Shown one piece after another: positions 18 through 37,235 of a stretch of DNA of 64,000 nucleotides. The stretch covers positions 17,114 through 81,113 of the forward strand of contig JAMCTH010000003.1 in NCBI GenBank assembly GCA_023379025.1, written 5' to 3'. A program made the position numbers and the translations under genes. Within the stretch, counting starts at the first letter, position 1. Each line of letters begins with the position of its first letter. Origin of the DNA: Patescibacteria group bacterium (lineage in GTDB: Bacteria; Patescibacteriota; Microgenomatia; UBA10105; UBA927). Under the pieces are notes generated by a model. That model worked only from the letters and a program-made list of their open reading frames with translations. It was not told the origin of the DNA and did not search any database.

Positions 18-1115
18 TCATAAGGAATGTGCGGTCCGGGCAAGGAGCGCCGTGCTTTCCCGTGTCACCCGGTCCCAGGACAGGGTTTTTGTCTCCTGAA
101 GGCAGTTTTTTTGATATCTCCGGTATCGGACGGGGTCATCCATGAGCCCGTCTATCTGGCGTGCCATTTCTTCCGGGGTGTTTTTGGCAAGAACCACACC
201 GGTTGCGCCGTTTTGAACGGAATCCCGGAGTCCGTTGACGTTATAAACGATTGCGGGTGTCCCCATTGCGGCCGCTTCCGTTACGACCAATCCCCACCCT
301 TCCTTCACAGATGCGTGAAGCAGGAGGTGTGCGCGTGACATAAGATGCAGTTTTTGCCTTTCGCTTACCTTACCCCAAAACCGTACCCTCGTGCCGCAGC
401 CGAGGCGGCGTACGAGACGTTTGAGGTTTCCGACATATGCTTCCTCGCCTTCTCCGACGATCCAGAGTGTCGCCCGGGTACGGATGCCTGCAAACGCGCG
501 GATGACGGATTCTACGCCTTTCATTTTGACCAGGCGGCTGACGAAGATGAAGGCAGGCCGCTTTTCCTTCCCCGGAACGGCGGGAAGCGCCCGCGTCATG
601 GGCGGACACGGGATGGCGACGCACTGTTTCCGGTCAATGCCGTATCTGACCAGTTCATCGACCGTTGAATGCGCATCGGTCCAGAACGGCACGCCGCGAT
701 AAAGATAAAAGTACAATCGTTCCAACAGCTTGCCCGCCTTATTCAGCGGGAAAAAACTCATGTAATCCCAGATTTCCCCGGCCACTTCATGGATAAAGGC
801 AATTTTTGGGCCGCGTACGTAAAGCGGCGTAAAAAAGGGCAGTCCGTGGATTTCATCAATGACGATGTCAAACTTTTTTCCGGAAAAAAGATAAAACGGA
901 AGCGCCCTCAAGTGTACCGTATATATAGAACCCCTGCGGACAATCTCCACCCCTTTCACCGTTTCCTGAGGTTTGGCTCCGGGAAAACGGGAAGTAAACC
1001 AGGTGACGCCGTGTCCCCGGGATACCCAGCCTTCGGCGTGTCTCATGGTCACGATTTCCGCCCCGCCCGAAAGGGGGTTGCCGGGATCCCGCCAGTTGAG
1101 GATGAGAATGTTCAT
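18..1115 (-). CDS. GT4-family (GT-B fold) glycosyltransferase
   Basis: 365-aa ORF. The C-terminal segment EGWGLVVTEAAAMGTPAIV...GLRD is the GT4 nucleotide-sugar-binding motif. The N-terminal domain is typical of retaining GT-B enzymes. Confidence 0.8.
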   Translation of the reverse strand: MNILILNWRDPGNPLSGGAEIVTMRHAEGWVSRGHGVTWFTSRFPGAKPQETVKGVEIVRRGSIYTVHLRALPFYLFSGKKFDIVIDEIHGLPFFTPLYVRGPKIAFIHEVAGEIWDYMSFFPLNKAGKLLERLYFYLYRGVPFWTDAHSTVDELVRYGIDRKQCVAIPCPPMTRALPAVPGKEKRPAFIFVSRLVKMKGVESVIRAFAGIRTRATLWIVGEGEEAYVGNLKRLVRRLGCGTRVRFWGKVSERQKLHLMSRAHLLLHASVKEGWGLVVTEAAAMGTPAIVYNVNGLRDSVQNGATGVVLAKNTPEEMARQIDGLMDDPVRYRRYQKNCLQETKTLSWDRVTRESTALLARTAHSL

Positions 1116-1118
1116 GGA

Positions 1119-1922
1119 TCAGCCGACATTGACGCGGAAGCTGAGCTCCGGGTCAAAACGCCATTTCCGTTTGTTGTCGTTATCGTAGTAATGCCGGATT
1201 TTGAGGCGGTAAAAAATCGCGAGCGTTTCCCACAGCATATCAAGCACAATTCTCCAGAAATTCTGCGAAGTGATGCTGGAACTCCCGGAAAAATCAAGTT
1301 CGACCGGTGCTTCATAGATTCTCGTATACCCCAACCGGTGGGCAACCGCCAGAATCTCTATATCAAATGCAAACTGTTTGACCAACAGCCGGGGAAGAAC
1401 GTCTTCAAGGACCTGCCGGCGGTACAGCTTGAGCCCGACCTGGGTATCGCGCACCTTAAGGCCGAAGAGCGCTAGCACCAGCATCTGATATCCCCATGAC
1501 AGGATTTTGCGGTAAAGCGGATAGGAAACCTTGGACACCGGATGGCGTTTGCTGCCGACGATGATATCCGCGTTATACCAGCGGAAATGCTCAAGCATCA
1601 TGGAAATGCCTTCGGCCCGAAGGTCTCCCCCGCCGTCTATAAAACCGACGGTATCTCCGCGGCTTTTGGCCATGCCGAACCGGACCGCGTAGCCCTTGCC
1701 GTGATTGGTTTTATACCCGGTCACCGTAAGCTTCGGGGAAGAAACCTTTTGCGCCTCAGGGAGACTCCCGTCTTCCTCCCCGTCCACGACCACGATAATC
1801 TCATACGGGATCGCGAGGAGTTCCATCTCCCCGATAATTGCCTGCAGGTTTTTCCTGACGGTTTTTTCCTGGTGATAGACCGGAATGATGAGCGACAGCA
1901 GTTTAGGCTTTGATCTTGGCAT
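1119..1922 (-). CDS. GT2 polyprenyl-phosphate sugar synthase-like glycosyltransferase (DPM1/GtrB-like)
   Basis: 267 aa. LSLIIPVYHQEK opens a GT-A fold, with EIIVVVDGEEDGS and the downstream DGGGD acidic motifs. It overlaps the upstream flippase gene by 20 nt. Confidence 0.7.
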   Translation of the reverse strand: MPRSKPKLLSLIIPVYHQEKTVRKNLQAIIGEMELLAIPYEIIVVVDGEEDGSLPEAQKVSSPKLTVTGYKTNHGKGYAVRFGMAKSRGDTVGFIDGGGDLRAEGISMMLEHFRWYNADIIVGSKRHPVSKVSYPLYRKILSWGYQMLVLALFGLKVRDTQVGLKLYRRQVLEDVLPRLLVKQFAFDIEILAVAHRLGYTRIYEAPVELDFSGSSSITSQNFWRIVLDMLWETLAIFYRLKIRHYYDNDNKRKWRFDPELSFRVNVG

Positions 1923-3147
1923 AGGTATAGGACATAAGTAAACTCAGGAACAGGGCCGCGCCTACGGCAATATCGACGTACACCACCTCATAGAGCGTTT
2001 GGTGGAAAAGCGATATACATACGGCCTGCGCAACCGCAGAACCGACCGTGAGGATCCAGATAAAGGTATTTCCTGCCGCAAGCTGGATGGAATTGAGGAG
2101 GTTTGCAAGCGTATAAAAAGAGATGAAGATACCAAATAACCCGAGGTACGGCGCCGCCGGGCGGAACGCGGGCCCGAACGGCAGGACGACGATGCCGGGA
2201 ATGAGAAAATACAAGACGGTTATCGCCGATGAGACAAAACCGACGGCCAGAAGCCCGAGCCATACGACCTTTCCGTGCGATGCTTTGAGCTCAGTGCGCT
2301 CGGCGACCAGCGGAAAGATGACAAACTCCACGGCCGAGGAGGCATAAAACACCGCTTTTCCGAGGACGGAGAGCGCCGAGTAGATGCCGGCTTCGCGGCT
2401 TGGGAAATAGTGCTTGACCAAGAGGATGTCCTGGCTGTAGATAAGCGTGATGCCGAAGGTCGTAAGGAGTACCGGCCAGCTATAATGGAACGCTTCATGT
2501 TTCGTCAGCGACAGACGTTCCTGTTTCGCTCTAAAAAGAAATCTGAGGGGGATAAAGGTCGTGAGGTAACTCAAGACACTCGAAACAACGTTGCCCACCA
2601 GCGTCCAGCCGACACCGAAAAAAGCCGCCGGTATGGCGATAAACAGCCGCAGGAAAATACTGATGTTGCCTATGATGCTTGACGCCGTAAAGAACTGAAA
2701 TGCACGGATCGCGGCACTGTTTATGATACTGATGGTGGAAACGGCGAAGATAAGATACAGCCAGATAAAATACACCCTCGAGCGCATATGGAGATAGCCG
2801 GCAACTAACGGAATAAGCGGGAGCGCGATGACGAGTCCTGCGCACTCGAGAAGGAATATGAGCCGGACGGAACGCAGAAGCAGCTGCTTTGCTTCTCCGT
2901 TGGCGTTCCTGGCCTTAAGGACCGAAAAAAATTTCACCATGATGGTCTGGAGCACTCCCGAAGGGACGCTGAGGATATAAAAGAGCGCAAACAGCGCAGC
3001 CAGTTCCGAATACTTGGCAGGACCCAGGATCCTTCCGACCGCCAGGTGATAGAGCCAGGCTCCGAAATTGGCGAAGATCGATCCGATAAAGACGATCGAA
3101 CTGTTTTTGATAAGCGTATGACCGAATAATTTCCTGAGCCGTTCCAT
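1903..3147 (-). CDS. Wzx-like lipid-linked oligosaccharide flippase (MOP superfamily)
   Basis: 414 aa. About 12 predicted TM helices with short loops and no large soluble domain, the size and architecture of polysaccharide biosynthesis flippases. It lies between glycosyltransferase genes. Confidence 0.6.
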   Translation of the reverse strand: MERLRKLFGHTLIKNSSIVFIGSIFANFGAWLYHLAVGRILGPAKYSELAALFALFYILSVPSGVLQTIMVKFFSVLKARNANGEAKQLLLRSVRLIFLLECAGLVIALPLIPLVAGYLHMRSRVYFIWLYLIFAVSTISIINSAAIRAFQFFTASSIIGNISIFLRLFIAIPAAFFGVGWTLVGNVVSSVLSYLTTFIPLRFLFRAKQERLSLTKHEAFHYSWPVLLTTFGITLIYSQDILLVKHYFPSREAGIYSALSVLGKAVFYASSAVEFVIFPLVAERTELKASHGKVVWLGLLAVGFVSSAITVLYFLIPGIVVLPFGPAFRPAAPYLGLFGIFISFYTLANLLNSIQLAAGNTFIWILTVGSAVAQAVCISLFHQTLYEVVYVDIAVGAALFLSLLMSYTYAKIKA

Positions 3148-3156
3148 ACCTGCTCC

Positions 3157-3843
3157 TCAGTTGAAAAACCGGCAGCGGATAAGCGTCCGGAGCGCGATGA
3201 TACCGTCGCGCCACGTAAGTTTTTTCCCTTCTTCAAACTTCCTGCCGAAATAGGAAATCGGCACTTCGTATATCTGATGTCCGCTCCGGAGGATTTTTGC
3301 AGTGAGCTCCGGCTCGCAGTCGAACCGTTTCGCCCGGAGCGTGATGCCCTGCAGAACCTCGCGGCGCATGACTTTGTAGCCCGATTCCATATCGGTAATC
3401 GTCGTATTATAGAGAATATTGGTCATAAGCGTCACGAATTTATTGCCGACGGCATAAAGGTACATGGTGGAAAGGTGGGGCCCCAAAAACCGCGACCCAT
3501 AGACGACCGTCACCCTGGGATCTGCAAACGGGGCCAAAAGCGCTTGGTAATCGGATGGATCATATTCGAGATCCGCGTCCTGGATAAGGATGAGATCGCC
3601 TGTTGCGCTCCTGAATCCTTCGGCAAGCGCACTCCCCTTCCCTTCGTTTTTTTCTTTGTGGATCACCCTAATCCCGTGGCCCCATCCGTCTATCTTTTTC
3701 CCGGTCCCGTCGGTTGAACCGTCATCGACGACGATAATCTCCTTGGAATATCCCGGTGTCTTTGCGTTTTTTACCCTGGCTAAAACATCCAAAACCGTAC
3801 GTTCCTCATTGTATACCGGTATGATAATCGACAGTGTTTTCAT
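3157..3843 (-). CDS. GT2 polyprenyl-phosphate hexose synthase (DPM1/GtrB-like)
   Basis: Carries LSIIIPVYNEE, EIIVVDDGSTDGT, NEGKGSALAEGF and DADLEYDP motifs. The start is trimmed from the ORF-track Met1 (3945) to the internal ATG at 3841-3843. That ATG overlaps the TGA of the downstream GT4 gene as ATGA. Confidence 0.8.
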   Translation of the reverse strand: MKTLSIIIPVYNEERTVLDVLARVKNAKTPGYSKEIIVVDDGSTDGTGKKIDGWGHGIRVIHKEKNEGKGSALAEGFRSATGDLILIQDADLEYDPSDYQALLAPFADPRVTVVYGSRFLGPHLSTMYLYAVGNKFVTLMTNILYNTTITDMESGYKVMRREVLQGITLRAKRFDCEPELTAKILRSGHQIYEVPISYFGRKFEEGKKLTWRDGIIALRTLIRCRFFN

Positions 3844-4892
3844 GTGCGTGTATCTTCGAGAGCCTTCCGGTAACTTTCCGAAGTCTCCCGGGCCATGCGC
3901 TTCAGGGAATACCCGGCAAGCCATGCGCTGGCTTTTTTCTGCCATTCCTTCCGGTCTGTCCGAAGCGTCCGGAGTACTGCCCCGGCAAATTCCTCCGGAT
4001 CCGCCGGATCGGCGGTCAGTGACGGTCCTGCAATCTCAGCAAGGGATGACCTGCCGGAAACGACTGCCGGACAGCCGCACGCCATGGCTTCGAGTACCGG
4101 CAGTCCGAAGCCCTCTGCAAAGGAAGGCTGCATATAGCAGGCCGCCATGCTGTACACGGCCGGCAGGTCCGTATCAGGGATAAAACCGGTCCGCACAATA
4201 AACGGGGCAAGACGCAGGGTCTCTGCCTTCGAAAGGACGGCACGCGTCTCCGGAAGATTCTCGTCCGTGACGGCCTTACCGGCCAGCACCAGACGGAGCT
4301 CGGGAATTTTCGCATGCAGAATGGAAAATATGTCGATAAGTCCCGGGAGGTTTTTGTTCCAGTTTACGTCCCCGACATAAAGAAGATATTGACGGGGAAG
4401 ACTGTAGCTTGTCCTGATCCGCTTTACTGTCCTTTCATTTGCCACGGGTTTCATGTCCGGCCCCGGCGCGAGGGGAACGACGTCCACCCGTCCGGGAGAG
4501 ATCCCCGTAAAACGGACGATGTCTTTTTTGGATGCGAGAGAATCAGTGACTACCCGCCGGGCAAATACCAACGATAACTGCTGGATTTTCCACATAAGAC
4601 TTCCCCGCTTCCCTTTCGGAAAGTGGTCCGGAAAGGCAATGGGAATAAGGTCGTGGACCGTAACGACGGTCGGGGTTCGCTTCAGAAGCGGCAGTGTATG
4701 AAAAAAAGTGTCGAAGTATGGATAATGCGCTATATCAGCATTTCCGGGTAATTTTTCTCCCCGGGTAAATAAGGTGTACGAATTTGACCGTTCGTATTTT
4801 TCCAGTGCTCCAATAAGCATTTTTGTATAGACGCCGGTGCCGCGCAACCGGTGAGCGCCCGTCATCGGGCTAGTTTCTATCGCGATATGCAT
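3840..4892 (-). CDS. GT4-family glycosyltransferase
   Basis: 350 aa. The segment AEGFGLPVLEAMACGCPAVVS is the GT4 E-X7-E region. A Met10 start at 4865 is an alternative that would avoid the 23-nt overlap with the upstream gene. Confidence 0.8.
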   Translation of the reverse strand: MHIAIETSPMTGAHRLRGTGVYTKMLIGALEKYERSNSYTLFTRGEKLPGNADIAHYPYFDTFFHTLPLLKRTPTVVTVHDLIPIAFPDHFPKGKRGSLMWKIQQLSLVFARRVVTDSLASKKDIVRFTGISPGRVDVVPLAPGPDMKPVANERTVKRIRTSYSLPRQYLLYVGDVNWNKNLPGLIDIFSILHAKIPELRLVLAGKAVTDENLPETRAVLSKAETLRLAPFIVRTGFIPDTDLPAVYSMAACYMQPSFAEGFGLPVLEAMACGCPAVVSGRSSLAEIAGPSLTADPADPEEFAGAVLRTLRTDRKEWQKKASAWLAGYSLKRMARETSESYRKALEDTRT

Positions 4893-6453
4893 ATTTTTTG
4901 AGTATAAATGATCCCAATACCCAGAACAAGCTCAAAAGGCTTGTAATGTCGGCAATTTCCCTAAGCGTCGTTTCCCGGAAAATGACGGAGACCGTGCTCT
5001 GGCCCTTCGGAACCTGAAACGCTAGCCCGCCCGACCGGTAATCGATCGGTACGCTCCGGCCGTCCACCCGCACCTCCCAGCCGGGATAATAGGCAATGCG
5101 CGATCGTACGGTCTCCTTCACGGGGACGGAAACGCGGAGTGCGTATGCAAGCGGCTTGGAAACTACAGGCGTTACAGTACCGGACTCCACGGTAAAACGT
5201 CCGGCAGGACGGGTTCCCGGCGGAACCAACCATCGCGTGGAGAAGACATCCCCGGGAGTAGTCGTTCCGTATAGAAATTGAGGCTTACTCAGGTAATAGG
5301 CATCGGATCGCGCATCGTACGTTACCGGTCTGGTATACCCGTAGGCAAAAAGAACTGCAGCGAGCCCAAGAGCCGGCGGCATCCATTTCCCGGGGAGTGT
5401 GGATGATATATAGCCGGCGAGAAACGCTGTCGCGACGAGTATGTAGGAAAGGAAACGCCAGGGAAACTGCACATAGGACAACATGGGTACGGAATTCCAG
5501 ACCGGCAGGGAAACAGAAAGCATCAGGAACACCCCGCCAAGGGCCACGGCGGAAAAAAAACCGGAAAGGATACGTGCATCCCGGCGTTTCTCCCGAACCG
5601 TCAGAAGTATCCCCCAGAGCATGACAACAAGCGGTATGATGCCGATTTGCGTACTCATTTCGCCGGAAAGATACCCTGCATTGGCAACCCCCGTGCCCCA
5701 GGACGGGATGACTACTTCGGCGAGCATCGGGAAGTAATCCCGGAAATTGACGGTATTGATGCCGGTCATATACTGCCGCTCAAGAAGCGCCGGAACCCAG
5801 AAATATGACGAGAGTCCGAGACCCGCGGCAAACGGCACTCCAAACGTCCGCTTCCGGATAAGGATATACGCGAGGATAACCGGAACGAAAAGCATCGCCA
5901 TGATATTGTGGGAAAGGATGAGCCCCGCGACGCATACCGTAAAAAACGTCTTCCGGTCCGATTCGACCGCGGAGAATGCCGCCATGAGAAACCCCATGGC
6001 AACCACCTCCCCGACGGATCCGCGGACATAGATGTCCACAAACCAATACGGCACAAATGCAAAGACGATTGTACCCAACAGTGCCGCACCTCCCCGGAAC
6101 AACGAAGAGAGCCAGCGGTAACAGAAGACAGCCGCCGCCCAGTACCCCGCGGCCAATGTAAGCTTAAACGAGTCGGCCAGGGAAAATCCGAACGCATGGA
6201 ACAGGGCGCCGAGATAATCCGGCAGGGGATACTGGAAATTAAAAAGCGGCAGTCCGTATCCGCCCGCCAAATCAGGCGCCCACCGGGGAAACAGATATCC
6301 CGCGCGGAGCATGGCAAACATCTCGTATATCCGGATGAAGTGATACTCGCCGTCATGAGTGGGGATAAACCGCGGGCCCAAAAGCGGAAGGCTGGCAACG
6401 AGGAGAATACCGCCGAGAAGTATCCCCTTCCACCATTTCCCAAGCATGTTCAT
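4870..6453 (-). CDS. Family-A large polytopic membrane protein (HDG-motif, GT-C-like candidate; PTPS-related-like?)
   Basis: 527 aa with many TM helices. Right after TM1 it has THDGEYHF...PRWAPDLAGGYGLPLFNFQYPLP, and a C-terminal beta-rich soluble domain. It is one of five paralogs in this window. Confidence 0.55.
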   Translation of the reverse strand: MNMLGKWWKGILLGGILLVASLPLLGPRFIPTHDGEYHFIRIYEMFAMLRAGYLFPRWAPDLAGGYGLPLFNFQYPLPDYLGALFHAFGFSLADSFKLTLAAGYWAAAVFCYRWLSSLFRGGAALLGTIVFAFVPYWFVDIYVRGSVGEVVAMGFLMAAFSAVESDRKTFFTVCVAGLILSHNIMAMLFVPVILAYILIRKRTFGVPFAAGLGLSSYFWVPALLERQYMTGINTVNFRDYFPMLAEVVIPSWGTGVANAGYLSGEMSTQIGIIPLVVMLWGILLTVREKRRDARILSGFFSAVALGGVFLMLSVSLPVWNSVPMLSYVQFPWRFLSYILVATAFLAGYISSTLPGKWMPPALGLAAVLFAYGYTRPVTYDARSDAYYLSKPQFLYGTTTPGDVFSTRWLVPPGTRPAGRFTVESGTVTPVVSKPLAYALRVSVPVKETVRSRIAYYPGWEVRVDGRSVPIDYRSGGLAFQVPKGQSTVSVIFRETTLREIADITSLLSLFWVLGSFILKKYAYRDRN

Positions 6454-7592
6454 GCCAATGCCTTTCTCCGGGTTTCAGGTCTGAATCTGAGATGCACGGC
6501 ATACCAAACCAAATAGAACAGCACCGGTACGGCCGTAAGCAATTCCCTCATAATGGGACCCGGGCCTCCGTAGGAAAAAGTCAGCATGTACGGAATATAG
6601 CGAAGAAGCAGGGAAAACGTCAGGACTATGGAGAACGGATGGATGAAACTTCCTTTCCGTATCGGGATGACGGCCGCAAACACCAGAAACCATACCGCAT
6701 ACCAGGGATACATCTCTTCCCGGATCGGAGACAGAAGGAATATGACAAACATAAGGATATATGCCCACCGGAAAAGCACTTCCCTCGTGGGATTACGGAG
6801 AAACCACAGGGGAAGAAGTACCACGGTCGCACCTTTAACAAAAACGGAAAGTACAAACGAACCTATCCCCGCGTACCGGGTGCTTCTCTTTCCCGAAGCG
6901 ATGGTCGACACCGCAAAAAGAGAAAAAACCATCATGACGATATCATTGTGTCCGGAAAGAAGCACCTCTATGAGAACCAGCGGGTTCATGCCGAAAAAAA
7001 GCACTGCTTTCGGATCTTTGGTGATCCGGTATATCAACCGTAACGCGCCAAGGTACCAGATAAAGGAAAGGCTTTTGAACAGAATCAGTTCTGCCCACAC
7101 CGTCCCCCGGCCCAGGAACCAGGGGATCGCCGTGAGGAAAACCCATGTCGGGCCATAGAGCGTCACCTTATTCGCGGCTCTCGTAAATGCCAGCATGGGC
7201 TCATTCGGGATCGCAACCGGCATGACAATCCAGGGATTTTCATGGTAAAAAAAAGCGACCTTTGCGGAGAGAACGTAATTGAAAATGTCATAGGAAAATG
7301 CCGGGTATGCGATGACGTATATGATTCCGACAAGAAACAACAAACGAAACCGCGGATGTTTTCCAACGGAGGTGTCTGTCTTCCGAAACGAAAAATAATA
7401 AACGAGAAACAGCACACAAATACATACGGCATAGACAGCTGTCGCAGCCGGACGGTGACGGAAAACCAGCTCCATGAGCGGCCCGTGGAGTGCGGCATAG
7501 AGAGGGTTACCGGACAAATGAAGATTGGGATCCACGAACCCGTAGGTAAAGACTGCCAGTATGACTGATATAACCACAAAAAGCACGTTCAT
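6450..7592 (-). CDS. Family-B polytopic membrane protein (about 380 aa; possible small GT-C or Wzy/ligase-like)
   Basis: 380 aa and entirely hydrophobic. It has an AFSYDIFNY loop motif and a GHNDIVMM segment. A paralog lies at 45100..46257. It overlaps both neighbours by ATGA. Confidence 0.45.
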   Translation of the reverse strand: MNVLFVVISVILAVFTYGFVDPNLHLSGNPLYAALHGPLMELVFRHRPAATAVYAVCICVLFLVYYFSFRKTDTSVGKHPRFRLLFLVGIIYVIAYPAFSYDIFNYVLSAKVAFFYHENPWIVMPVAIPNEPMLAFTRAANKVTLYGPTWVFLTAIPWFLGRGTVWAELILFKSLSFIWYLGALRLIYRITKDPKAVLFFGMNPLVLIEVLLSGHNDIVMMVFSLFAVSTIASGKRSTRYAGIGSFVLSVFVKGATVVLLPLWFLRNPTREVLFRWAYILMFVIFLLSPIREEMYPWYAVWFLVFAAVIPIRKGSFIHPFSIVLTFSLLLRYIPYMLTFSYGGPGPIMRELLTAVPVLFYLVWYAVHLRFRPETRRKALA

Positions 7593-8137
7593 GACTTTTT
7601 GACTTGCGAGCGTATCCGCATTCTCAGAACTATCGACTGTTCCAAAAGCTTACCAAGCGGGAGTACCGAAACCTTTCCGTTTTCAGGAGCCCATTCGAAT
7701 TCAGGAGGCACACCGGTTAAAAGATTCCGGAGCACTTCCTCATGGACGGACGCTTCTTCTGCTATGCTCGTTCTGAACACGCCCATATCCTTGCCCCCGG
7801 ACCGCCCCCTGGAAACCAGCCCGGGGAGGTAAGAAATCTCCGAATCTGAGCGCTTGAGCGCATCCGTTGCCAGAAGATATTGCTTATACTCAAACAGTGT
7901 TTTTGCTTCTACCAGATATTTGTCCGAGAGATTCATACGGTATTCTATGGACGCGATGGTTCCCCAGTACCAGTATCGTTTGAGACCGTCGAGTATTCTG
8001 CTGACGCGGTACAGCCTGTTCCCGGGCATGTATGACGGATACGGAAGAACATAGTCCGATGCATATACCCTGGATACGAAAAAACAGGAGAACAGAAATA
8101 CAAACGTAGAGATAACGATAAGAGCCAGGCTTCTCAC
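7589..8137 (-). CDS. Small signal-anchored or secreted protein of unknown function
   Basis: 182 aa. It has an N-terminal hydrophobic helix followed by a hydrophilic domain. I recognised no motif. It is embedded in the operon by 4-nt overlaps. Confidence 0.5.
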   Translation of the reverse strand: MRSLALIVISTFVFLFSCFFVSRVYASDYVLPYPSYMPGNRLYRVSRILDGLKRYWYWGTIASIEYRMNLSDKYLVEAKTLFEYKQYLLATDALKRSDSEISYLPGLVSRGRSGGKDMGVFRTSIAEEASVHEEVLRNLLTGVPPEFEWAPENGKVSVLPLGKLLEQSIVLRMRIRSQVKKS

Positions 8138-8149
8138 AATAAATTCCCT

Positions 8150-8926
8150 TTATCTTCGGAACTTTTTAACATACAAGCGGTATGCAAGCGGGAAATGCAT
8201 GGCGGAAAAAAGCGCAAACAAAAATCCGTACCAACCGTCGACAAACCCTTTATGCCGGAAAAAAAGAAGAAAAAAGGTTGCCGACGGCTTTACGAGATAA
8301 TACGAAAGGGCCGTAGTGACCGAAGGGACGAGATGACGGGCGTGCAGTTCGGAAGCCTCAAGAGCTACGTACGTGCGGGCCTTTTTCCGGTATTCCCCGA
8401 TCGAATCGTACGTATAATGATGTAACGCGTGAGTGAGATGCCCGACATCCCCGTCGACCGCGATCTGCTCGTGCACGCTTTTGGCCGGAAAATGTGCTTT
8501 GCCGTTGCGGACGAGCCGTATGACGTAATCCGGATACTGGCCGCCTTTTCTGAGCCAGTGGCCCAGGAAATAATTTTTCCTCGGGAGAAAAAAACCGTTT
8601 TGCTCCGGATGAGCTTTAATCGTCGCCTCAATTTCGTTCATTAATTCTCCTGACACTTCCTCATCGGCATCAAGCTGAAGGATCCATCTCCCCCGGCAGC
8701 GATCGAGCGCTTTTTGTTTGTTTATATGGAAGATCGGAGGATTACCGGTATGGACGACGGTTGCGCCGAACGACGCCGCGATATCGCAGGTTTTATCTCC
8801 CGATCCACCGTCAACGACGATGATTTCCCCGGCCGTATCCTGCACTGAGGCAAGACACCGGGCGAGATTTCGTTCTTCGTTATACGTCGCAAGGGCGACG
8901 GAAAGCATTATGTCTTTTTTCGCCAT
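8150..8926 (-). CDS. GT2-family glycosyltransferase (LPS-core/WaaE-like type)
   Basis: 258 aa with LSVALATYNEE and DGGSGDKT GT-A motifs. A Met7 start at 8908 is possible. Confidence 0.7.
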   Translation of the reverse strand: MAKKDIMLSVALATYNEERNLARCLASVQDTAGEIIVVDGGSGDKTCDIAASFGATVVHTGNPPIFHINKQKALDRCRGRWILQLDADEEVSGELMNEIEATIKAHPEQNGFFLPRKNYFLGHWLRKGGQYPDYVIRLVRNGKAHFPAKSVHEQIAVDGDVGHLTHALHHYTYDSIGEYRKKARTYVALEASELHARHLVPSVTTALSYYLVKPSATFFLLFFRHKGFVDGWYGFLFALFSAMHFPLAYRLYVKKFRR

Positions 8927-10590
8927 AGGACGATATATCCTCCTCCCGCCACCACAACGGCGATACCTGCAAGCGTCAGTATATCGCTTACCCTTCTCAG
9001 TTTCGTATCTCCGAACGCGACGACAACCTCATGACGCCCTCGTTCCACCCAATACGTCATGAGTCCGCGATACCGGGGATCCTGAAATTCTACCGGAACC
9101 ACTTTCCCGTCGACCGTAACCGTCCATCCCGGAAAATAGAGCGTATTTTCTACAATCCGGGTACGGGTTCCCGCATTGACCGTATAGATATGAAGTGTCG
9201 TTCGGCGGGCGACCGGCTTAATAGCAGCATTTCCCTCAATGACGAGAGCGGGTCCTTTCGGCGCCTTCTCCATAAACCGGACGGACCATATGGGGCTGCT
9301 TTCGCCGGTATCCGTCGTACCCGGATAGATCCCGGTATAAAAGGATTCCGGCTTGTTGATGTATCCGCGCGGCTGCCACATGCCGTACGTCGTAAAAATG
9401 ACGAGAAAAATAGTTGCCGCAAATACATACCTTCCGGGTTTCGGAGGCAATTGGGATCCGGCAACAGACGCAATCGAAGCGCAGATGATGACGGGAACGG
9501 CAAGAAATCTCCAGGGGAACTGGAACTTCTGAAGAATACGGACATGGTCCCATACCGGGAGTGACCACTCCGTCATAAGAAAAAGCGTACATGCCAAAAG
9601 GACCAAAAGGGCTATCAGGATAGTACGTATATGCTTCTTTTTCGATCTCCACAACACGATGCCGGATCCTCCGACAGCTATCCATGCCGGGACACCCAAC
9701 TGTTTTGTAAGCTCATTGCCTCCTCCCCAACTCCAGGGCGAATAGAAAAAAGACAAAAACGGCACAAACCGCGTACTGAATTCCCTGCCGGTTACGATAT
9801 CACGGAGCGTATATTTTCCTTCAAAAAAAGCGGGAACCCAGAAAAAAGCGGACAGAACAAATCCCAGCGCCACGGCTATTCCCGCTGTTACCAAAAACCG
9901 TCCGGGACTTTTGGTACGGAACCCGGCCTCATACACCGCATACAACCCAAGAAGCGGCAGCATCATGAGGCTTATGGCGTTATGGGCCAGAATGAGACCC
10001 GCTGTCGCCGCCGCGATGAGGAGGCCGTAGAACATACGGTCCCTCTCCGAGTATGACTTCCGTTTCCCCGATCCCTCGGTATCAAACGCCCTGCCCATAC
10101 GGAATAATCCCCAAAGGATAATCGGCGGGAATACGAACGCCAGGTGTTCACCGATATCCCCGCGTACGTACATATCCACGAAGCGGTACGGCGCAAATCC
10201 GTAAAGAAGACTTCCGATGCCAGCTCCAAGGTTACCCCATTCTTCCCTCGCCCAGAGGAAAAAGAAAAGAAGCGAGGCGATATAGGAAAGTCCGGTGACA
10301 ATTTTCAGGCTGTCTGCGAGCCCCGGCCCCAGCGCGTGCAGGCCGGAAACGAAATATGACGGAAGCGGATAAAGAAACATGAGAATGGGATGTCCGTATC
10401 CCCAGTTTAGGTTTTCCGCCCATCTCGGGACGATATTTCCTTCGCGAAGCGAGAGGTAGAAATTAGCGATACGCGCGACATGATCCTGTCCGTCGTGTGT
10501 CGCGGGCAAACCTGCATGGAAAAGCGCTCCGAGAGGGAGAAGTGATAGTGCGAGGACTATAAGGATCGTTATCGCGGTGTTTTTCTTCAT
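8908..10590 (-). CDS. Family-A large polytopic membrane protein (HDG-motif)
   Basis: 560 aa with ATHDGQDHV...PRWAENLNWGYGHPILMFLYPLP. It is a paralog of 4870..6453. Confidence 0.55.
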   Translation of the reverse strand: MKKNTAITILIVLALSLLPLGALFHAGLPATHDGQDHVARIANFYLSLREGNIVPRWAENLNWGYGHPILMFLYPLPSYFVSGLHALGPGLADSLKIVTGLSYIASLLFFFLWAREEWGNLGAGIGSLLYGFAPYRFVDMYVRGDIGEHLAFVFPPIILWGLFRMGRAFDTEGSGKRKSYSERDRMFYGLLIAAATAGLILAHNAISLMMLPLLGLYAVYEAGFRTKSPGRFLVTAGIAVALGFVLSAFFWVPAFFEGKYTLRDIVTGREFSTRFVPFLSFFYSPWSWGGGNELTKQLGVPAWIAVGGSGIVLWRSKKKHIRTILIALLVLLACTLFLMTEWSLPVWDHVRILQKFQFPWRFLAVPVIICASIASVAGSQLPPKPGRYVFAATIFLVIFTTYGMWQPRGYINKPESFYTGIYPGTTDTGESSPIWSVRFMEKAPKGPALVIEGNAAIKPVARRTTLHIYTVNAGTRTRIVENTLYFPGWTVTVDGKVVPVEFQDPRYRGLMTYWVERGRHEVVVAFGDTKLRRVSDILTLAGIAVVVAGGGYIVLWRKKT

Positions 10591-12086
10591 GTCTCCGGCA
10601 TCATACGTTTCTGTATGATAAATCCCGACGGAAGCGTCTTTGTAGACACGACCGTACCTGTTTTTATAACGGTCTCAAGCCACCCCTTATATGACCATGG
10701 CTTCTCCGGATCCGGTTCGATCAGGAGATAAAACGTTTTTGATTTCCCCTCCGCCGGAACGAATCCGTATCGTTTTGTCCCGTACCACCCAAACAAATAA
10801 TCATATGCATACGTATACACCGCAGGCGTAAATACCATAAGATGGAACGGCTTGTATCCGGCGTCTTTGTAGAGGGCATCTATGGCCTGCTCTTTACCCT
10901 GTATTTTATGCGTTCCTCCGAAATCGGAAAAGTCCCTACGAACAGTTGTATAGGCATTCCCTATCCCGGTCACGGCTATCACAACCGTAACGAGGACGGC
11001 CGCAAGGCGCAGCTTCTTTTCTTCGAAAAGATACCCCAAAAGTATGCCCGAGAGAAGCGGCACGGATACGGTAAGCTCGATGATCCACCAGTCCCATATA
11101 GGCTGAACATAGGGCGCAAAAACAATATAGAGAAACACCGGCAAACCGAGAAGCCACAACACAAAAACTTTTTTTTGTCTTGCGATTTTCCCATCCCGGA
11201 TGTACAGCGCGCTTACGAGAAGAAGAAATACGGCAAACAGAACGGGAACAGACTGAACTGCCGATGAGGATGAAATGCCCGCCCAAAACACGGCGGCGTG
11301 ATTGACGAATGCAGAGCTAAGCATCTGTATGCCGGATCCATGATCTGCGCCTCGCGCCATGAAGAGTCCTCCGAGTGCGCGCGAGGTAATAAAATCGTGG
11401 CGGATATCGAACACCACAAGGGGCGTAAGCGGCAGCAGGAGAAATGTAAGGCCTGCGAGTATTGTCCTGAAATCGATATGCTTTCGGATAAACGCGATCA
11501 ATGCCGTCGCAAAGAGTACGGCAGCGAGTGTTGCGCCGGCTGCCGCCTCAAAATGAAACATGGTTCCGGTAAGAAAGAATGCGCCTATCAATGCACGCCG
11601 TCTCCCGGAAAAAAGATGATAGAGGCAGATGAAAACCCCGAGTGACAGAAGGGATACCGGAAACGGAGGCCAGATAAAACGGGATTGGGCGATAAGTGCC
11701 GGAGACGTTGCGAGGAAGAGTCCGATGACAAGGCCCGTGACTCGACCGTAGGTACGTACGCCGAACCACATCCCGAGCAGCACAACGCTCATGCCGATCG
11801 CAAACATGAGCGTCATCCCTCCGTACGGATCGCCGCCGGTCAGAAGAAACGGAACTGCCAGGAGATAGTACCATCCCGGTCCCTGAAATAATCCTCCCTG
11901 ACCGCCGACCGGCGCGCCTATAAGCGTCAGTTTATGGCCGACAACGATGCGCCGTACAGCTTCGTAAAACAGTCCCTGATCAAAGCCCCACAGATAATTG
12001 CCGTTGACGAGCTCTATAGCCCGTGGCAGGGCTGCGACCAAGATTACGGCAAAAGCCATTGCCAAAAACTTCACGGTACGATTCAT
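10587..12086 (-). CDS. Family-C GT-C fold membrane glycosyltransferase (ArnT/PMT-like, COG1807-type)
   Basis: 499 aa with about 11 TM helices. The first loop reads FDQGLFYEAVRR...TLIGAPVGGQGGLFQGPGWYY and is shared with 18363.., 26736.. and 47072... It has a C-terminal soluble domain. Confidence 0.6.
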   Translation of the reverse strand: MNRTVKFLAMAFAVILVAALPRAIELVNGNYLWGFDQGLFYEAVRRIVVGHKLTLIGAPVGGQGGLFQGPGWYYLLAVPFLLTGGDPYGGMTLMFAIGMSVVLLGMWFGVRTYGRVTGLVIGLFLATSPALIAQSRFIWPPFPVSLLSLGVFICLYHLFSGRRRALIGAFFLTGTMFHFEAAAGATLAAVLFATALIAFIRKHIDFRTILAGLTFLLLPLTPLVVFDIRHDFITSRALGGLFMARGADHGSGIQMLSSAFVNHAAVFWAGISSSSAVQSVPVLFAVFLLLVSALYIRDGKIARQKKVFVLWLLGLPVFLYIVFAPYVQPIWDWWIIELTVSVPLLSGILLGYLFEEKKLRLAAVLVTVVIAVTGIGNAYTTVRRDFSDFGGTHKIQGKEQAIDALYKDAGYKPFHLMVFTPAVYTYAYDYLFGWYGTKRYGFVPAEGKSKTFYLLIEPDPEKPWSYKGWLETVIKTGTVVSTKTLPSGFIIQKRMMPET

Positions 12087-13738
12087 AATTTCCTTGCAAG
12101 TACGATTCCGGTACTGCCGTCAAGATTGGTGAAACTGTGTTCCCCGACGCCGGCCGGAAAATCTCGGGGATCCCCGGCAAAAAGTACGGTCGGAGAGGGG
12201 GTCTCACCCTGCCAAATAATCGGTCGGAACTCAAACTTTCCGATCGTATGCGTTTCGGCAAAGCCTCCTGAGCGGGTACCTCCCTGACGGATATACCGTA
12301 CCGGATCATACCTGTCCCAGTAGAGATAGTACATATATGCGGTTGATAGCGGGCCTCTGTTTGAGACAACAATTTTCGAGTAATCCTTCTGATGCTGTAT
12401 GAGATAAGGCATGGCACGGCTCAGGGCATACAGGTAATCCGATGACGCGGCACGGGGGAACACGGTAAAATACTCTCGCCCGAATACTGCGGCACTTCCC
12501 CCCGCAATGCACAATAGGACAAACAGCGCTGTCATCCGCAGGCTGTATGATTTGAGGACACGGAGTATACCGATGCACAAAACGGCGGCAAGGATGTCGA
12601 TGGCAGGGGCCGCGGTCAATGTCCGCATGGCATGCGGCGCCATGGTGGCAAATGCAGCAGCAAGGGGCGAACTCCAAACCCACACGGATATGGTGACTTT
12701 GACTTTCCGGGAGAACTCCCCCCGGAGCACCCAGATATATCCAGCCAGTGCCATGAGGAGTTCCCACGGATACAGAAGCCCGAGATACGGAACTTTAAAG
12801 TCCTCATGATATCCCCCGGTCAGAAGCCATTTCAGATTAAGATGCGACAGATAATTCCCGGTGAATATACGAAGCGACGTAATTTTGGGGTTATACAGCA
12901 GCGTCCCGACCGGATCATGTGCGGTACGCGCCGCAAGCCAGAGTCTGTCCGTCTCCCGGTAAAGCGGATTATCGGCAAATGCCGACGTGCCGGTGACCCG
13001 GAGAAGTGCCCCGGGGGAAAGACTTGCCAGGACAATCGGAAGCGATACAAGGAAAAATATGAAACATGCCGGGATATAGGTACTCCGTCTTTTGAGGATA
13101 TCGTTGCGGAATGACCATACGAGCCCGACAATCATAACCGGTGTCAGGACTTTGAAGCTCTGATAGGTATAAAACGTCAGTGCGAACGCTACGGCAGAAA
13201 CGACGGTCCATACCGATGCATGTTCCGGCCGGACTCCCCGGAGCCATGCGTAGATTCCGAAAAGATAGAGCGTGAGGCCGAGATTCACCTCATTGCCGAG
13301 CCGCGATATGAAGATGTGCCACGGGGAAATAGTCAGAAAAAGTGCCGCCAATAATCCGGCCGTGACCCTCAACCCTCCTATCCGGATAGAGTACCGCTCC
13401 GGGTCAAACAACTCATCCGCCAAAAGATAGACAATCAATACCGCAAGGACGGAGGCTAGTGCCGACGGCAGGCGGACGGCGAGAGTATTCATGCCCAGTG
13501 CCGCGACAAACGGCACGACGGCGTATACGTACAGCGCCGGCCGGTAATCGTCGTATGCGCGAAGGAGTATGGGGAGACGGGTTCCGTATTCATCGCGGCC
13601 GGTTTCCGCGAGGGAGCGGGCATTATACGCAATCGTCACTTCGTCAAGTGACGGGCTCGGCGGGATGCTGCCAATCCGGTACAAACGGAAAAAAAGGGCG
13701 AGCGCAAGTACTACGGCAAACGGAAGGATTGTTTTCAT
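12083..13738 (-). CDS. Family-D GT39/PMT_2-type membrane glycosyltransferase (ArnT-like)
   Basis: The loop-1 motif is SLDEVTIAYNARSLAETGRDEYG. The ORF-track start at 14074 is an unlikely 112-aa leader. I trimmed it to the ATG at 13736-13738, which has a GGAGA about 10 nt upstream. An ATG at 13777 is an alternative. Confidence 0.7.
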   Translation of the reverse strand: MKTILPFAVVLALALFFRLYRIGSIPPSPSLDEVTIAYNARSLAETGRDEYGTRLPILLRAYDDYRPALYVYAVVPFVAALGMNTLAVRLPSALASVLAVLIVYLLADELFDPERYSIRIGGLRVTAGLLAALFLTISPWHIFISRLGNEVNLGLTLYLFGIYAWLRGVRPEHASVWTVVSAVAFALTFYTYQSFKVLTPVMIVGLVWSFRNDILKRRSTYIPACFIFFLVSLPIVLASLSPGALLRVTGTSAFADNPLYRETDRLWLAARTAHDPVGTLLYNPKITSLRIFTGNYLSHLNLKWLLTGGYHEDFKVPYLGLLYPWELLMALAGYIWVLRGEFSRKVKVTISVWVWSSPLAAAFATMAPHAMRTLTAAPAIDILAAVLCIGILRVLKSYSLRMTALFVLLCIAGGSAAVFGREYFTVFPRAASSDYLYALSRAMPYLIQHQKDYSKIVVSNRGPLSTAYMYYLYWDRYDPVRYIRQGGTRSGGFAETHTIGKFEFRPIIWQGETPSPTVLFAGDPRDFPAGVGEHSFTNLDGSTGIVLARKL

Positions 13739-13778
13739 AACGGAAAGTTCTCCGGGCTTCCTTTCTCTGTTTTTCATG

Positions 13779-25546: not shown

Positions 25547-25680
25547 CTACTGAAGAAACCTTTAAGTTAATTTTTTTCTCCGAGTCTTTTTCTTCGTTCT
25601 CCACCTAAGGAAATTACTGCCTATCAATACTTTATGGTTACGTCGGAAAAAACCAAGTTGTACGGCGTGAAAAACTGTAG

Positions 25681-25866
25681 TTAGTCAAAAATTACTTTAT
25701 TTGAGGAGTAATTTTTTCTGTAGTTTTCGACAATCTCCATCTGCATCTTGTTAGATTCATGCAAGGCACGTTTAATTATCCGCTTTTTTTCTTTTGCGGG
25801 GTAATCAAAGTATGAACGACCCGTTGATACTTTGCCGGTAAGCTTCCTGATAATATTCCTGATCAT
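25681..25866 (-). CDS. Small basic hypothetical protein (61 aa) coupled to the zeta-like gene
   Basis: It lies in the AT-rich island, and its ATG overlaps the zeta-like 3' ORF stop as ATGA. I recognised no motif. Confidence 0.3.
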   Translation of the reverse strand: MIRNIIRKLTGKVSTGRSYFDYPAKEKKRIIKRALHESNKMQMEIVENYRKNYSSNKVIFD

Positions 25867-26578
25867 ATCTCTAATTTATATTGATCCAATGCCTTAGACA
25901 AGGATTCTGGAGTATACCCCAAATTTACATACTTATCAACATTATGCACGTTAAAATCAGACTTTTCAATACCCTTCAGTATGTTCTTCTTAATAACAGT
26001 AACCTCTATTTCTGGGTATACTCGCTTAATTTTGGCTACTGTATCTAAGGCGTCAAAAAAAGATTTTAGAAAAAATCCTTGGGTATAGGTCTTCCTTCTA
26101 ATTTTTCTCTTTTTTTTGTTAATCCCCACGATACCAACGGATCTTGATAAATATATACAATTGATATTTTACGCTTATGCTTAATACACCTTTTAATATT
26201 AGCTTCTGCATGATCATATTGAGACATTGTGGAGTCAAGCAAAAAATCAATATCATTTGCAAATACATGGTCAAGTAATTTGTTTACCCCCGCATAAGCC
26301 GCACCCTGAATTTCCATAGCATTTGTCTTATTGTATTGCGGAAGGAAATCCCTTATTTCATCGGCATCTATCCGAACAATATGGCGTGAATTATCATGTT
26401 CACATAGCTGCTGAATAAAGGCTTTAGAATATTCAGTTTTTCCAGCACCTGGAGAGCCAGACATAAAGAATGCTGCGGGGTTCGAAACTGTTAGATAAAT
26501 ATCGGGATCAGCGAAACGTTTAATGAGTTCCTTCTTGTGAGATCTAATAAACAGTACGGCATCATCACTTTTACTCAT
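25863..26578 (-). pseudogene. Zeta-toxin-family P-loop kinase gene interrupted by a -1 frameshift (or slippage site)
   Basis: The 5' ORF 26066..26578 has a Walker A motif GSPGAGKT and an RIDADEIRDFLPQY segment like zeta/PezT. Its 3' continuation is a second ORF, 25863..26129, in the -1 frame. The two frames meet at an A8 run, acaaaaaaaagag. Confidence 0.6.
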
Positions 26579-36602: not shown

Positions 36603-36605
36603 ATG

Positions 36606-37223: not shown

Positions 37224-37235
37224 ACCTCAATGACG

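What the first reader, a model, noticed from the sequence alone, without database searches (positions are those of the whole stretch)
4870..6453. Family A: five paralogs of an uncharacterised HDG-motif giant membrane protein
The genes at 4870..6453, 8908..10590, 19888..21540, 40343..42040 and 42034..43575 share an N-terminal block of conserved motifs. Directly after TM1 comes (T/A)HDG-x2-H, then P(R)W-x2-(D/N)L, then GYG-x-P(L/I)FNF-x-YP(L)P-x-Y and (A/G)(D/L)(S/A)-x-K. These sit on a multi-TM core with a C-terminal beta-rich soluble domain of about 150 aa. I recall this shape from proteins annotated only as 6-pyruvoyl-tetrahydropterin-synthase-related membrane proteins, which have no experimentally defined function. 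The invariant HDG-x2-H after the first helix would face the extracytoplasmic side and could bind a metal or a pyrophosphate. One paralog (42034..43575) has SDDGEW in its place. That suggests either loss of activity or a variant chemistry.
Basis: partly seen in the sequence, partly recalled or inferred. Interest (0 to 1): 0.7.

Follow-up and report, generated by a model that had tools for sequence, protein, structure and literature searches.

The report
Five YfhO-like GT-C glycosyltransferase paralogs
The five genes are real, anciently diverged copies of a membrane sugar-transferase (GT-C fold, related to YfhO and Pfam PF10131) whose conserved aspartate after the first membrane helix is most likely the usual catalytic residue; they sit in a large, conserved surface-glycan gene island of a Gottesmanbacteria-like (CPR) bacterium, so the family is uncharacterised experimentally but not a new kind of protein.

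Summary
All five ORFs exist at the stated coordinates (513-565 aa) and are full-length paralogs (25-36% identity, blastp E 1e-23 to 1e-93). They share the described N-terminal motifs.

Corrections:
- Only the Asp of "HDG" is invariant (148/148 diverse members). The residue before it is His or Asp in about equal numbers, and the "x2-H" His is specific to one subgroup.
- The "odd" SDDGEW paralog belongs to a large orthogroup in which DDG-x-WM-x-IR is strictly conserved. It is not a decayed copy.
- The proteins are not giant.
- The beta domain (about 120 aa) is followed by a last TM helix.

[quoted passage not shown] Neighbouring genes are GT2 enzymes that resemble polyprenyl-phosphate sugar synthases, flippases and about 15 further GT-C genes, in an order conserved across Gottesmanbacteria.

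Most likely function: outer-face transfer of a sugar from a polyprenyl-phosphate donor to a surface glycan or protein. Verdict: new members of a known kind, of moderate to low interest.

The parts
4870..6453 (-). Family A paralog 1 (527 aa), H-D type (THDGEYH). Predicted layout: 12 TM helices, outer beta-sandwich at residues 375-495, last TM helix 496-521.
6340..6360 (-). Acidic motif THDGEYH of paralog 1. The invariant Asp34 codon is 6352..6354, at the N-terminal cap of the first EL1 helix.
4969..5331 (-). Extracytoplasmic beta-sandwich domain of paralog 1 (residues 375-495), with the conserved Y-x-P-G-W at 5077..5091. Shared with the YfhO-type genes of the window.
   Evidence: DSSP strands. 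Weak YfhO/PgfM C-terminal HMM matches. blastp to 21324/29128/32480. Foldseek partial matches to GH30 chains over about 80 columns.
8908..10590 (-). Family A paralog 2 (560 aa), H-D type (THDGQDH at 10480..10500; Asp33 at 10492..10494). Its 3' end overlaps the start of GT2 gene 8150..8926.
   Evidence: A positional orthologue (50% identity) lies in L003.
19888..21540 (+). Family A paralog 3 (550 aa), H-D type (THDGAVH at 19990..20010; Asp37 at 19996..19998). It is the only paralog above the Pfam PF10131 cutoff and is followed by YfhO-type gene 21324..23909.
   Evidence: (57.6 bits vs 26.4).
40343..42040 (-). Family A paralog 4 (565 aa), motif MHDDTQ (41900..41917; Asp44 at 41909..41911). It overlaps paralog 5 upstream and GT2 gene 39616..40365 downstream.
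   Evidence: (PF10131 23.0 bits, below cutoff). Positional orthologue of 47% identity in L001.
42034..43575 (-). Family A paralog 5 (513 aa), D-D type (SDDGEWM at 43450..43470; Asp38 at 43462..43464).
39616..40365 (-). GT2 glycosyltransferase whose start overlaps the end of paralog 4. Candidate polyprenyl-phosphate sugar synthase that makes the donor.
   Evidence: Pfam Glycos_transf_2 78.6 bits. Best NCBIfam matches are PgfS, Dol-P hexose transferase, AglJ and ArnC, all below their cutoffs.
8150..8926 (-). GT2 glycosyltransferase whose start overlaps the end of paralog 2.
   Evidence: Pfam Glycos_transf_2 61.7 bits. Weak, below-cutoff NCBIfam matches.
48686..49798 (-). GT2 fused to a GtrA/DPMS transmembrane domain. 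This is the architecture of polyprenyl-phosphate sugar synthases with a flippase-type membrane domain.
   Evidence: Pfam PF00535 plus PF04138. Best NCBIfam match ArnC, below cutoff.
38171..39628 (-). Wzx/MOP-type flippase (Polysacc_synt_3) in the same operon as paralogs 4 and 5.
   Evidence: Pfam 178.9 bits.
29128..34897 (-). Two YfhO-type GT-C genes (29128..31593 and 32480..34897) flanking a GT4 gene. With 21324..23909(+), these are the closest relatives of family A in the window.
   Evidence: Pfam YfhO 45.7 and 76.9 bits. hhalign of family A against these: 98.8%, E 1.2e-16.

Best explanation
The five genes encode active GT-C (class GT-CA) glycosyltransferases of a short, YfhO-related clade that overlaps Pfam PF10131. 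Inferred mechanism: a cytoplasmic GT2 enzyme, encoded next to or near each paralog, loads a monosaccharide onto a polyprenyl phosphate. The lipid-linked sugar is flipped to the outer face; candidate flippases are the GtrA-type domain fused to GT2 48686..49798 and the Wzx-type proteins. Each family A enzyme then transfers the sugar, with inversion, to an acceptor hydroxyl on a surface glycan or protein outside the membrane. The invariant Asp directly after TM1 (D34 in paralog 1) sits at the start of the first helix of outer loop 1 and acts as the catalytic base. The conserved outer-face Arg residues (R41, R57, R144, R333) and H182 hold the donor phosphate. The flexible loop after TM7 closes over the donor. 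The small beta-sandwich between TM11 and TM12 helps bind the acceptor. The five paralogs are old, separately conserved orthogroups that differ mainly around the catalytic Asp (H-D versus D-D types), so each probably adds a different sugar or linkage. What is shown: paralogy, GT-C fold, outer-face location of all conserved residues, homology to YfhO-type proteins, conserved operon context. What is inferred: donor type, residue roles, acceptor.
Against: No member of this clade has been tested experimentally. Four of the five paralogs fail the Pfam cutoffs for PF10131 and YfhO. No PDB chain is detectable by sequence. The profile alignments to YfhO/PMT_2 families start after EL1 helix 1. The GT2 matches to polyprenyl-phosphate transferases are all far below the equivalog cutoffs. 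The donor could be diphosphate-linked instead. The acceptor is unknown.
Confidence: 0.78

Rival explanations
1. The proteins are oligosaccharyltransferase- or ligase-like GT-C enzymes. They would take a pre-assembled glycan from a polyprenyl-diphosphate carrier and transfer it en bloc to a protein or cell-wall acceptor, as PglB/AglB do, with the H/D-D motif and H182 binding a divalent metal and the diphosphate.
Confidence: 0.12
2. One or more paralogs, especially 42034..43575 with SDDGEW, are catalytically dead copies. They would serve as scaffolds or substrate-binding partners of active GT-Cs.
For: The motif differs from that of the other four paralogs. Adjacent, translationally overlapping paralogs 4 and 5 could form a heterodimer, as Pmt1-Pmt2 do.
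Against: The Asp is retained. The D-D-G-x-W-M-x-I-R motif is fixed in 118-120 of 120 orthologues. D-D is about as common as H-D in the sampled family and is a canonical GT-C acidic pair. All other conserved outer-face residues are kept. The model is a complete GT-C fold.
Confidence: 0.04
3. The proteins act in pterin metabolism or as transporters, as the Pfam name '6-pyruvoyl-tetrahydropterin synthase related' might suggest.
For: Only the historical family name.
Against: No structural match to PTPS or to transporters above background: MFS hits have Foldseek probability 0.08-0.15. The GT-C fold is unambiguous. The context is entirely glycan biosynthesis.
Confidence: 0.01

Closest known systems
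YfhO family (Pfam PF09586): B. subtilis/S. aureus YfhO, Listeria Lmo1079, streptococcal PgtC2, PgfM1/PgfM2
   Same: GT-C membrane core, detectable by profile-profile comparison with the YfhO-positive genes of the same window (98.8%, E 1.2e-16). Same plan: many TM helices, then an outer domain, then one last TM helix (PMC5836110). The C-terminal beta-sandwich with Y-x-PGW is shared (blastp E down to 5e-9; weak YfhO/PgfM HMM matches). Genes are paired with GT2 genes. Some orthologues are named 'YfhO family protein' by NCBI.
   Different: About 300 aa shorter: the outer domain is about 120 aa, against 389 aa in B. subtilis YfhO. No paralog reaches the Pfam YfhO cutoff (best 18 bits against 28.5). 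The N-terminal [H/D]-D-G motif has no alignable counterpart in the window's YfhO genes. Found in Microgenomates-type CPR bacteria rather than Firmicutes.
Pfam PF10131 PTPS_related (GT-C clan CL0111), function unknown
   Same: Paralog 3 passes the cutoff (57.6 bits), paralog 4 nearly does (23.0 against 26.4), and many orthologues of paralog 1 carry precomputed PF10131 hits.
   Different: Paralogs 1, 2 and 5 give no hit at E<=1. The Pfam model starts after TM1 and the first EL1 helix (paralog 3 residues 81-409 match profile positions 8-321), so the acidic motif is outside it. Only about the first half of the 621-position model is matched.
Solved GT-CA enzymes: Pmt4/Pmt1-Pmt2, ALG12/ALG9, ArnT, AglB/PglB/STT3, AftD/AftA/AftB
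   Different: Sequence identity is 8-18%, and no link is detectable by sequence search of the PDB. There is no MIR, CBM or OST-type periplasmic domain. The final TM helix after the outer domain matches the YfhO plan rather than a free C-terminal luminal domain as in ALG9/ALG12.

Membership tests
GT-C fold, class GT-CA (definition quoted in PMC13503287) | Integral membrane protein whose N-terminal conserved TM module superposes on solved GT-CA enzymes | tested here: met
GT-C fold, class GT-CA | First outer loop made of two alpha-helices, the first carrying the catalytic carboxylate | tested here: met
   EL1 helices are 35-50 and 76-87 in the paralog 1 model, and 39-54 and 81-91 in paralog 5. 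D34/D38 at the N-cap of the first helix is invariant in 148/148 members. Equivalence to the catalytic residue is positional only; no residue-level superposition was possible.
GT-C fold, class GT-CA | Active site on the extracytoplasmic face | tested here: met
   Positive-inside analysis on the model helices: 9 K/R in 24 cytoplasmic-loop residues against 23 in 278 outer residues. 44 of 56 conserved positions are in outer loops or the outer domain, none in a cytoplasmic loop. This is a prediction, not an experimental topology.
GT-C fold, class GT-CA | Uses a polyisoprenyl-phosphate-linked sugar donor | not testable with these tools
   Only contextual evidence: overlapping GT2 genes and several island GT2s with best, sub-threshold matches to PgfS/ArnC/Dol-P-hexose transferase/PpgS, and a GT2-GtrA fusion.
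Pfam PF10131 PTPS_related | Score at or above the gathering cutoff of 26.4 bits | tested here: inconclusive
   Paralog 3 scores 57.6 bits (met). Paralog 4 scores 23.0 bits (not met). Paralogs 1, 2 and 5 give no hit at E<=1. Many orthologues of paralog 1 carry precomputed PF10131 hits.
Pfam PF09586 YfhO | Score at or above the gathering cutoff of 28.5 bits | tested here: not met
   Best is 18.0 bits for paralog 1, C-terminal 48 residues only. Paralog 2 scores 10.2 bits; the others give none. Homology to YfhO-positive genes is nevertheless supported by hhalign at 98.8%.
Pfam PF09586 YfhO | Large extracellular domain between the last two TM helices (389 aa in B. subtilis YfhO; PMC5836110) | tested here: not met
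   The position of the domain is the same, but it is only about 120 aa (residues 375-495), a single beta-sandwich.
Multi-component transmembrane glycosylation system (GT-A + flippase + GT-C; PMC8035078) | GT-C gene paired with a GT2 (GT-A fold) gene and a GtrA-type flippase | tested here: met
   GT2 8150..8926 overlaps paralog 2. GT2 39616..40365 overlaps paralog 4. A GT2-GtrA_DPMS_TM fusion lies at 48686..49798. The arrangement is conserved in L001 and L003. Functional coupling was not tested.
Oligosaccharyltransferase (STT3/PglB/AglB) | Sequence membership in the STT3 family | tested here: not met
   No STT3 family hit in Pfam at E<=1. The outer domain is a 120-aa beta-sandwich. I did not search for the WWDYG motif explicitly.

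The most novel reading that the evidence does not exclude
The five paralogs would be stations of a conserved, roughly 54-kb assembly line of about 20 GT-C enzymes in Gottesmanbacteria and related Microgenomates. This line would build a complex surface glycan mostly outside the membrane from lipid-phosphate monosaccharides. It would be a bacterial counterpart of the ER-lumen ALG pathway or of mycobacterial arabinogalactan/LAM synthesis, in an organism with a genome of about 1 Mb. The H-D and D-D forms of the active-site motif would mark two mechanistically distinct classes, for example metal-assisted versus metal-independent, or different donor sugars.
Probability: 0.3. Interest if true: 0.6.

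Novelty: new member of a known kind. Interest (0 to 1): 0.33.

Why it matters
The analysis gives a concrete, testable annotation to a very large family that databases mostly label 'hypothetical' or with the misleading name 'PTPS-related'. The family has 7,726 clusters at 50% identity with E<=1e-30. The annotation is: outer-face GT-C glycosyltransferase, catalytic Asp just after TM1.

The acidic motif lies outside the Pfam PF10131 model, which may be why no active site has been assigned to the family.

The context may matter more than the single family. An organism with a genome of about 1 Mb devotes roughly 35 kb to about 20 GT-C genes, in a gene order conserved across Gottesmanbacteria. This points to an elaborate surface glycan, which could matter for the attachment lifestyle generally proposed for CPR bacteria (my own knowledge, not tested here). 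None of this changes what is known about how GT-C enzymes work.

Tried and rejected
- Sequence searches of the PDB with the 63-sequence profile, the five-paralog profile and paralog 3 alone found only chance matches with E>0.4. No solved relative is detectable by sequence.
- NCBIfam gave only sub-threshold C-terminal matches to PgfM1/PgfM2.
- The AFDB50 fold library was not available, so the nearest predicted structures and their taxonomy could not be listed.
- Model coordinates are not exposed, so I could not superpose D34 on catalytic residues of solved GT-Cs or measure distances among H33, H38, H182 and E149 to test a metal site.
- hhalign of family A against the window's PMT_2, YfhO and MptA_B-like families never extended into TM1 or EL1 helix 1. 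Motif equivalence could therefore not be shown by sequence. The comparisons with family B (24%) and the MptA_B-like pair (3.5%) were not significant.
- I looked for Ser/Thr-rich acceptor proteins in the island. Only two modest Pro/Thr/Ser-rich linkers turned up (55508..56464 and 36606..37223), with nothing compelling.
- No tRNA or Rfam match occurs anywhere in the window.
- Literature searches for CPR plus GT-C/YfhO/PMT_2, and for Gottesmanbacteria plus glycosyltransferase, found nothing relevant in the held library.
- The pterin-synthase reading was rejected on fold and context. The pseudoenzyme reading for paralog 5 was rejected on orthogroup conservation.
Full report
**Observation.** They encode 527, 560, 550, 565 and 513 aa. 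Every pair aligns over nearly its full length, with blastp E-values from 3.7e-23 to 2.8e-93 at 25-36% identity. A MAFFT alignment shows the N-terminal motifs. After TM1 comes (T/S/M)(H/D)D(G/D), then R at +7, then (P/V)R(W/F)xxxL, (G/S)YGxPxxxF, and a Lys at the start of TM2.

**How conserved is the motif?** A search with paralog 1 gave more than 1,100 homologues. The best are 49% identical, and nearly all named ones come from Candidatus Gottesmanbacteria or 'Patescibacteria group'. [quoted passage not shown] Several hit pairs from the two searches list the same longest-contig length, and two long contigs each carry positional orthologues of two paralogs. The paralogs are therefore old orthogroups, not recent duplicates.
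- In 120 orthologues of paralog 1 the motif P-T-H-D-G-E-Y-H-x-I-R is almost invariant.
- In 120 orthologues of paralog 5 the motif is S/T-D-D-G-x-W-M-x-I-R, with D, D, W, M and R in 120/120.
- A profile search of 1.84 billion 50%-identity representatives found 32,205 proteins at E<=1e-3 and 7,726 at E<=1e-30.
- In 143 of the best representatives plus the five paralogs, the Asp (D34) is 100% conserved. The residue before it is D (TDDG 38, SDDG 25) or H (THDG 35, SHDG 16). The second His of 'HDG-x2-H' is confined to the paralog 1 group.
- The degenerate motif pattern used to scan 596 Gb of GTDB genomes hit 184 places, and 148 of them encode a relative. The motif is therefore family-specific.

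The motif is real, but it is [H/D]-D-G with one universal Asp. The 'odd' paralog carries a form about as common as H-D, not a degenerate one.

**What the proteins are.** Pfam assigns paralog 3 to PF10131 PTPS_related (57.6 bits against a cutoff of 26.4). Paralog 4 falls just below the cutoff (23.0). Paralogs 1 and 2 give only weak matches of their C-terminal domain to YfhO (PF09586), and paralog 5 gives nothing. NCBIfam gives only weak C-terminal matches to the streptococcal YfhO-type enzymes PgfM1/PgfM2. PF10131 is a member of Pfam's GT-C clan, with function unknown (PMC7801869). The PF10131 match begins at residue 81 of paralog 3, after TM1 and the acidic motif, so the motif lies outside the Pfam model.

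Profile-profile comparison links family A to the three Pfam-positive YfhO genes of the same window (21324, 29128, 32480). The probability is 97.0% with the 63-sequence profile and 98.8% (E 1.2e-16, 261 columns) with a broader profile. The link to the PMT_2-type genes is 95.2%. blastp also links the C-terminal domains of families A and C (E down to 5e-9). No PDB chain is detectable by sequence.

**Structure.** AlphaFold2 models were built from orthologue alignments and are confident: pLDDT 92.6 and pTM 0.92 for paralog 1, and pLDDT 94.3 and pTM 0.93 for paralog 5.
- Foldseek gives the same set. The best TM-score is to AftD: 0.47, rmsd 5.8 A over 416 columns.
- Foldseek also returns short partial matches (about 80 columns) to GH30 chains. 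I attribute these to the C-terminal beta-sandwich.

The predicted layout is as follows:
- TM1 (residues 2-25).
- A long outer loop with two helices (35-50 and 76-87).
- Ten further TM helices.
- A loop after TM7 that holds the only low-confidence stretch (about residues 250-270). It corresponds in position to the flexible EL4 of AftD.
- A beta-sandwich (residues 375-495), then a last TM helix (496-521).

This is the plan described for B. subtilis YfhO, with an outer domain between the last two TM helices (PMC5836110). Here that domain is about 120 aa rather than 389.

**Topology and active site.** I applied the positive-inside rule to the model helices. The short loops assigned to the cytoplasm hold 9 K/R in 24 residues, and the outer loops hold 23 in 278. 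This gives 12 TM helices with both termini inside. The acidic motif, the rest of EL1, R144-E149, H182, W219-E225, Q329-R333 and the beta domain are then all outside. Of 56 positions at least 90% conserved in both the paralog 1 and paralog 5 orthogroups, 44 lie in outer loops or the outer domain and none lies in a cytoplasmic loop. Seven of the 12 in TM helices lie at the predicted outer ends.

[quoted passage not shown] Arg residues coordinate the donor phosphate (PMC13503287). In AftD, K39 and D41 just after TM1 are essential. D34 sits at the N-terminal cap of the first EL1 helix and fits that role. R41, R57, R144 and R333 are candidates for phosphate binding. These residue roles are inferred from position; I had no coordinates and could not superpose residues.

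**Divergence among paralogs.** Twenty positions are fixed within both the paralog 1 and paralog 5 orthogroups but differ between them. Twelve of the twenty lie in EL1, which makes up 12.5% of the protein. Five of those sit directly around the Asp: T32S, H33D, Y37W, H38M and F42L. This is the pattern expected for enzymes that keep their chemistry but differ in donor or acceptor. It is not the pattern of a decaying copy.

**Context.** The window from about 18 to 55306 is one glycan island.
- GT-C genes: besides family A there are four PMT_2 genes of one paralog group (12083, 13779, 15449, 23708). A second group has five (10587, 18363, 26736, 43572, 47072); 10587 has no Pfam hit and is included by paralogy alone (blastp E 1.3e-15 to 47072). 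There are also three YfhO genes, an ALG3/GT87-like gene (17062), and two genes (6450, 45100) whose orthologues carry PF26314 MptA_B_family. That makes about 20 GT-C-type genes, or roughly 34.6 kb of coding sequence.
- Other genes: ten GT2 genes, three GT4 genes, a Wzx-type flippase and probably a second, rmlABCD, UDP-glucose dehydrogenase and an epimerase.
- GT2 genes overlap the 3' ends of paralogs 2 and 4, and paralogs 5 and 4 overlap each other.
- For several of the island GT2s, including the one overlapping paralog 4, the best NCBIfam matches are polyprenyl-phosphate glycosyltransferases (PgfS, ArnC, Dol-P hexose transferase, AglJ, PpgS), all below the equivalog cutoffs. One GT2 is fused to a GtrA/DPMS membrane domain.
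- Gene order is collinear over 19 genes with a complete Gottesmanbacteria chromosome (OY970230.1; L001/L024) and over 11 genes with GCA_040960095.1 (L003). Protein identity is about 35-80%, and each family A paralog has a positional orthologue at 47-51%.
- In GTDB representatives the family occurs in Gottesman-, Levy-, Woese- and Shapirobacteria and in other Patescibacteria.

**Mechanism proposed.** The context matches the three-component scheme established for Gram-positive bacteria. A cytoplasmic GT-A/GT2 enzyme makes a C55-P-sugar, a GtrA-type flippase moves it outward, and a GT-C enzyme transfers the sugar outside the membrane (PMC8035078; PMC5836110). YfhO-family enzymes do this on teichoic acids, and also on Ser/Thr-rich protein regions (PgtC2, PgfM1). 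I therefore propose that each family A paralog transfers one kind of sugar from a polyprenyl-phosphate donor to a surface glycan or protein, with D34 as the catalytic base.
- Shown: paralogy, fold, conservation pattern, predicted sidedness, homology to YfhO-type genes, conserved operon context.
- Inferred: donor class, residue roles, inverting chemistry, role of the beta-sandwich.
- Unknown: sugar and acceptor.

**Rivals.** An OST-like en bloc transferase using diphosphate-linked glycans is not excluded. AglB and STT3 are among the best fold matches, and Wzx flippases are present. It is less likely, given the YfhO relationship, the equally good matches to monophosphate-using Pmt4 and ALG12, and the large number of GT-C and GT2 genes. 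A dead paralog 5 is contradicted by orthogroup conservation. A pterin-related function rests only on the family's historical name.

**Novelty and score.** The family already sits in Pfam's GT-C clan, and NCBI names some members YfhO-family. The GT-C assignment is therefore expected, and these genes are new members of a known kind. What this analysis adds is:
- the location and true form of the active-site motif, [H/D]-D-G, which lies outside the Pfam model;
- the H-D and D-D subclasses as conserved orthogroups;
- the 'short YfhO' architecture;
- the conserved island of about 20 GT-C genes in a genome of about 1 Mb.

I found no paper in the held library that describes such an island in CPR bacteria. 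That is weak evidence of novelty. Interest is 0.33.

Noticed in passing
window 18..55306: The whole stretch is one glycan-biosynthesis island. It holds about 20 GT-C-type genes (5 family A, 9 PMT_2-type in two paralog groups with 10587 counted by paralogy only, 3 YfhO, 1 ALG3/GT87-like, 2 MptA_B-like by orthologue annotation), about 34.6 kb in total. It also holds 10 GT2 genes, 3 GT4 genes, Wzx-type flippases, rmlABCD, UGDH and an epimerase. Gene order is collinear over 19 and 11 genes with two other genomes, one of them a Gottesmanbacteria chromosome, at about 35-80% protein identity.
   Followed up: partly
window 26066..26578 (-), within 24000..28000: A zeta-toxin gene (Pfam Zeta_toxin 101.8 bits) lies in a lower-GC gap (0.49-0.50 against about 0.54) that interrupts the island between oppositely oriented gene blocks. 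Two small Lys-rich ORFs (25681..25866 and 25863..26129) lie downstream. No epsilon-type antitoxin was recognised.
   Followed up: partly
window 58663..59149 (-): A BrnT toxin (58835..59149, Pfam 76.1 bits) and an overlapping ribbon-helix-helix/BrnA-like antitoxin (58663..58923, weak matches) lie in the lowest-GC part of the window (about 0.44).
   Followed up: partly
window 55508..56464 (-) and 36606..37223 (-): A CAP-domain protein has a Pro/Thr/Ala-rich linker (about residues 190-225) before a C-terminal membrane segment. A small signal-anchored protein inside the island has a Ser/Pro-rich linker. Both are possible O-glycosylation acceptors of the island's GT-C enzymes; this is speculation only.
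   Followed up: no
window 6450..7592 (-) and 45100..46395 (-): A paralogous pair (33% identity) has no significant Pfam hit (only GT87 at E 0.015 for 45100). Their positional orthologues in L001 and L003 carry PF26314 MptA_B_family, so they are probably further GT-C mannosyltransferase-like enzymes.
   Followed up: partly
proteins P0241-P0245 (database hits, not in the window): Some database proteins of 1,093-3,329 aa consist of two or more tandem family A modules. They are either true fusions of adjacent paralogs or gene calls that read through stop codons.
   Followed up: partly
loci L005, L007, L012, L014-L016 and others: Many GTDB records that carry family A genes are titled 'uncultured Gammaproteobacteria bacterium' (TPA MAGs). 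The proteins otherwise occur in Patescibacteria, and several of these contigs are about 0.8 Mb long. The titles are probably wrong.
   Followed up: no
window 56506..56838 (-), 59189..59815 (-), 59848..60792 (-): A cluster of tRNA t6A-pathway genes: a short TsaB/TsaD-like fragment (110 aa), Sua5/TsaC, and a TsaE domain fused to an N-terminal extension of about 170 aa. FtsX/FtsE and a coiled-coil Peptidase_C39-like protein follow at 61244..63997.
   Followed up: no
window 19888..21540 and Pfam PF10131: The PF10131 model aligns from residue 81 onward (profile positions 8-321 of 621). It therefore omits TM1 and the EL1 helix that carries the invariant Asp, and only about the first half of the model is matched.
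   Followed up: yes
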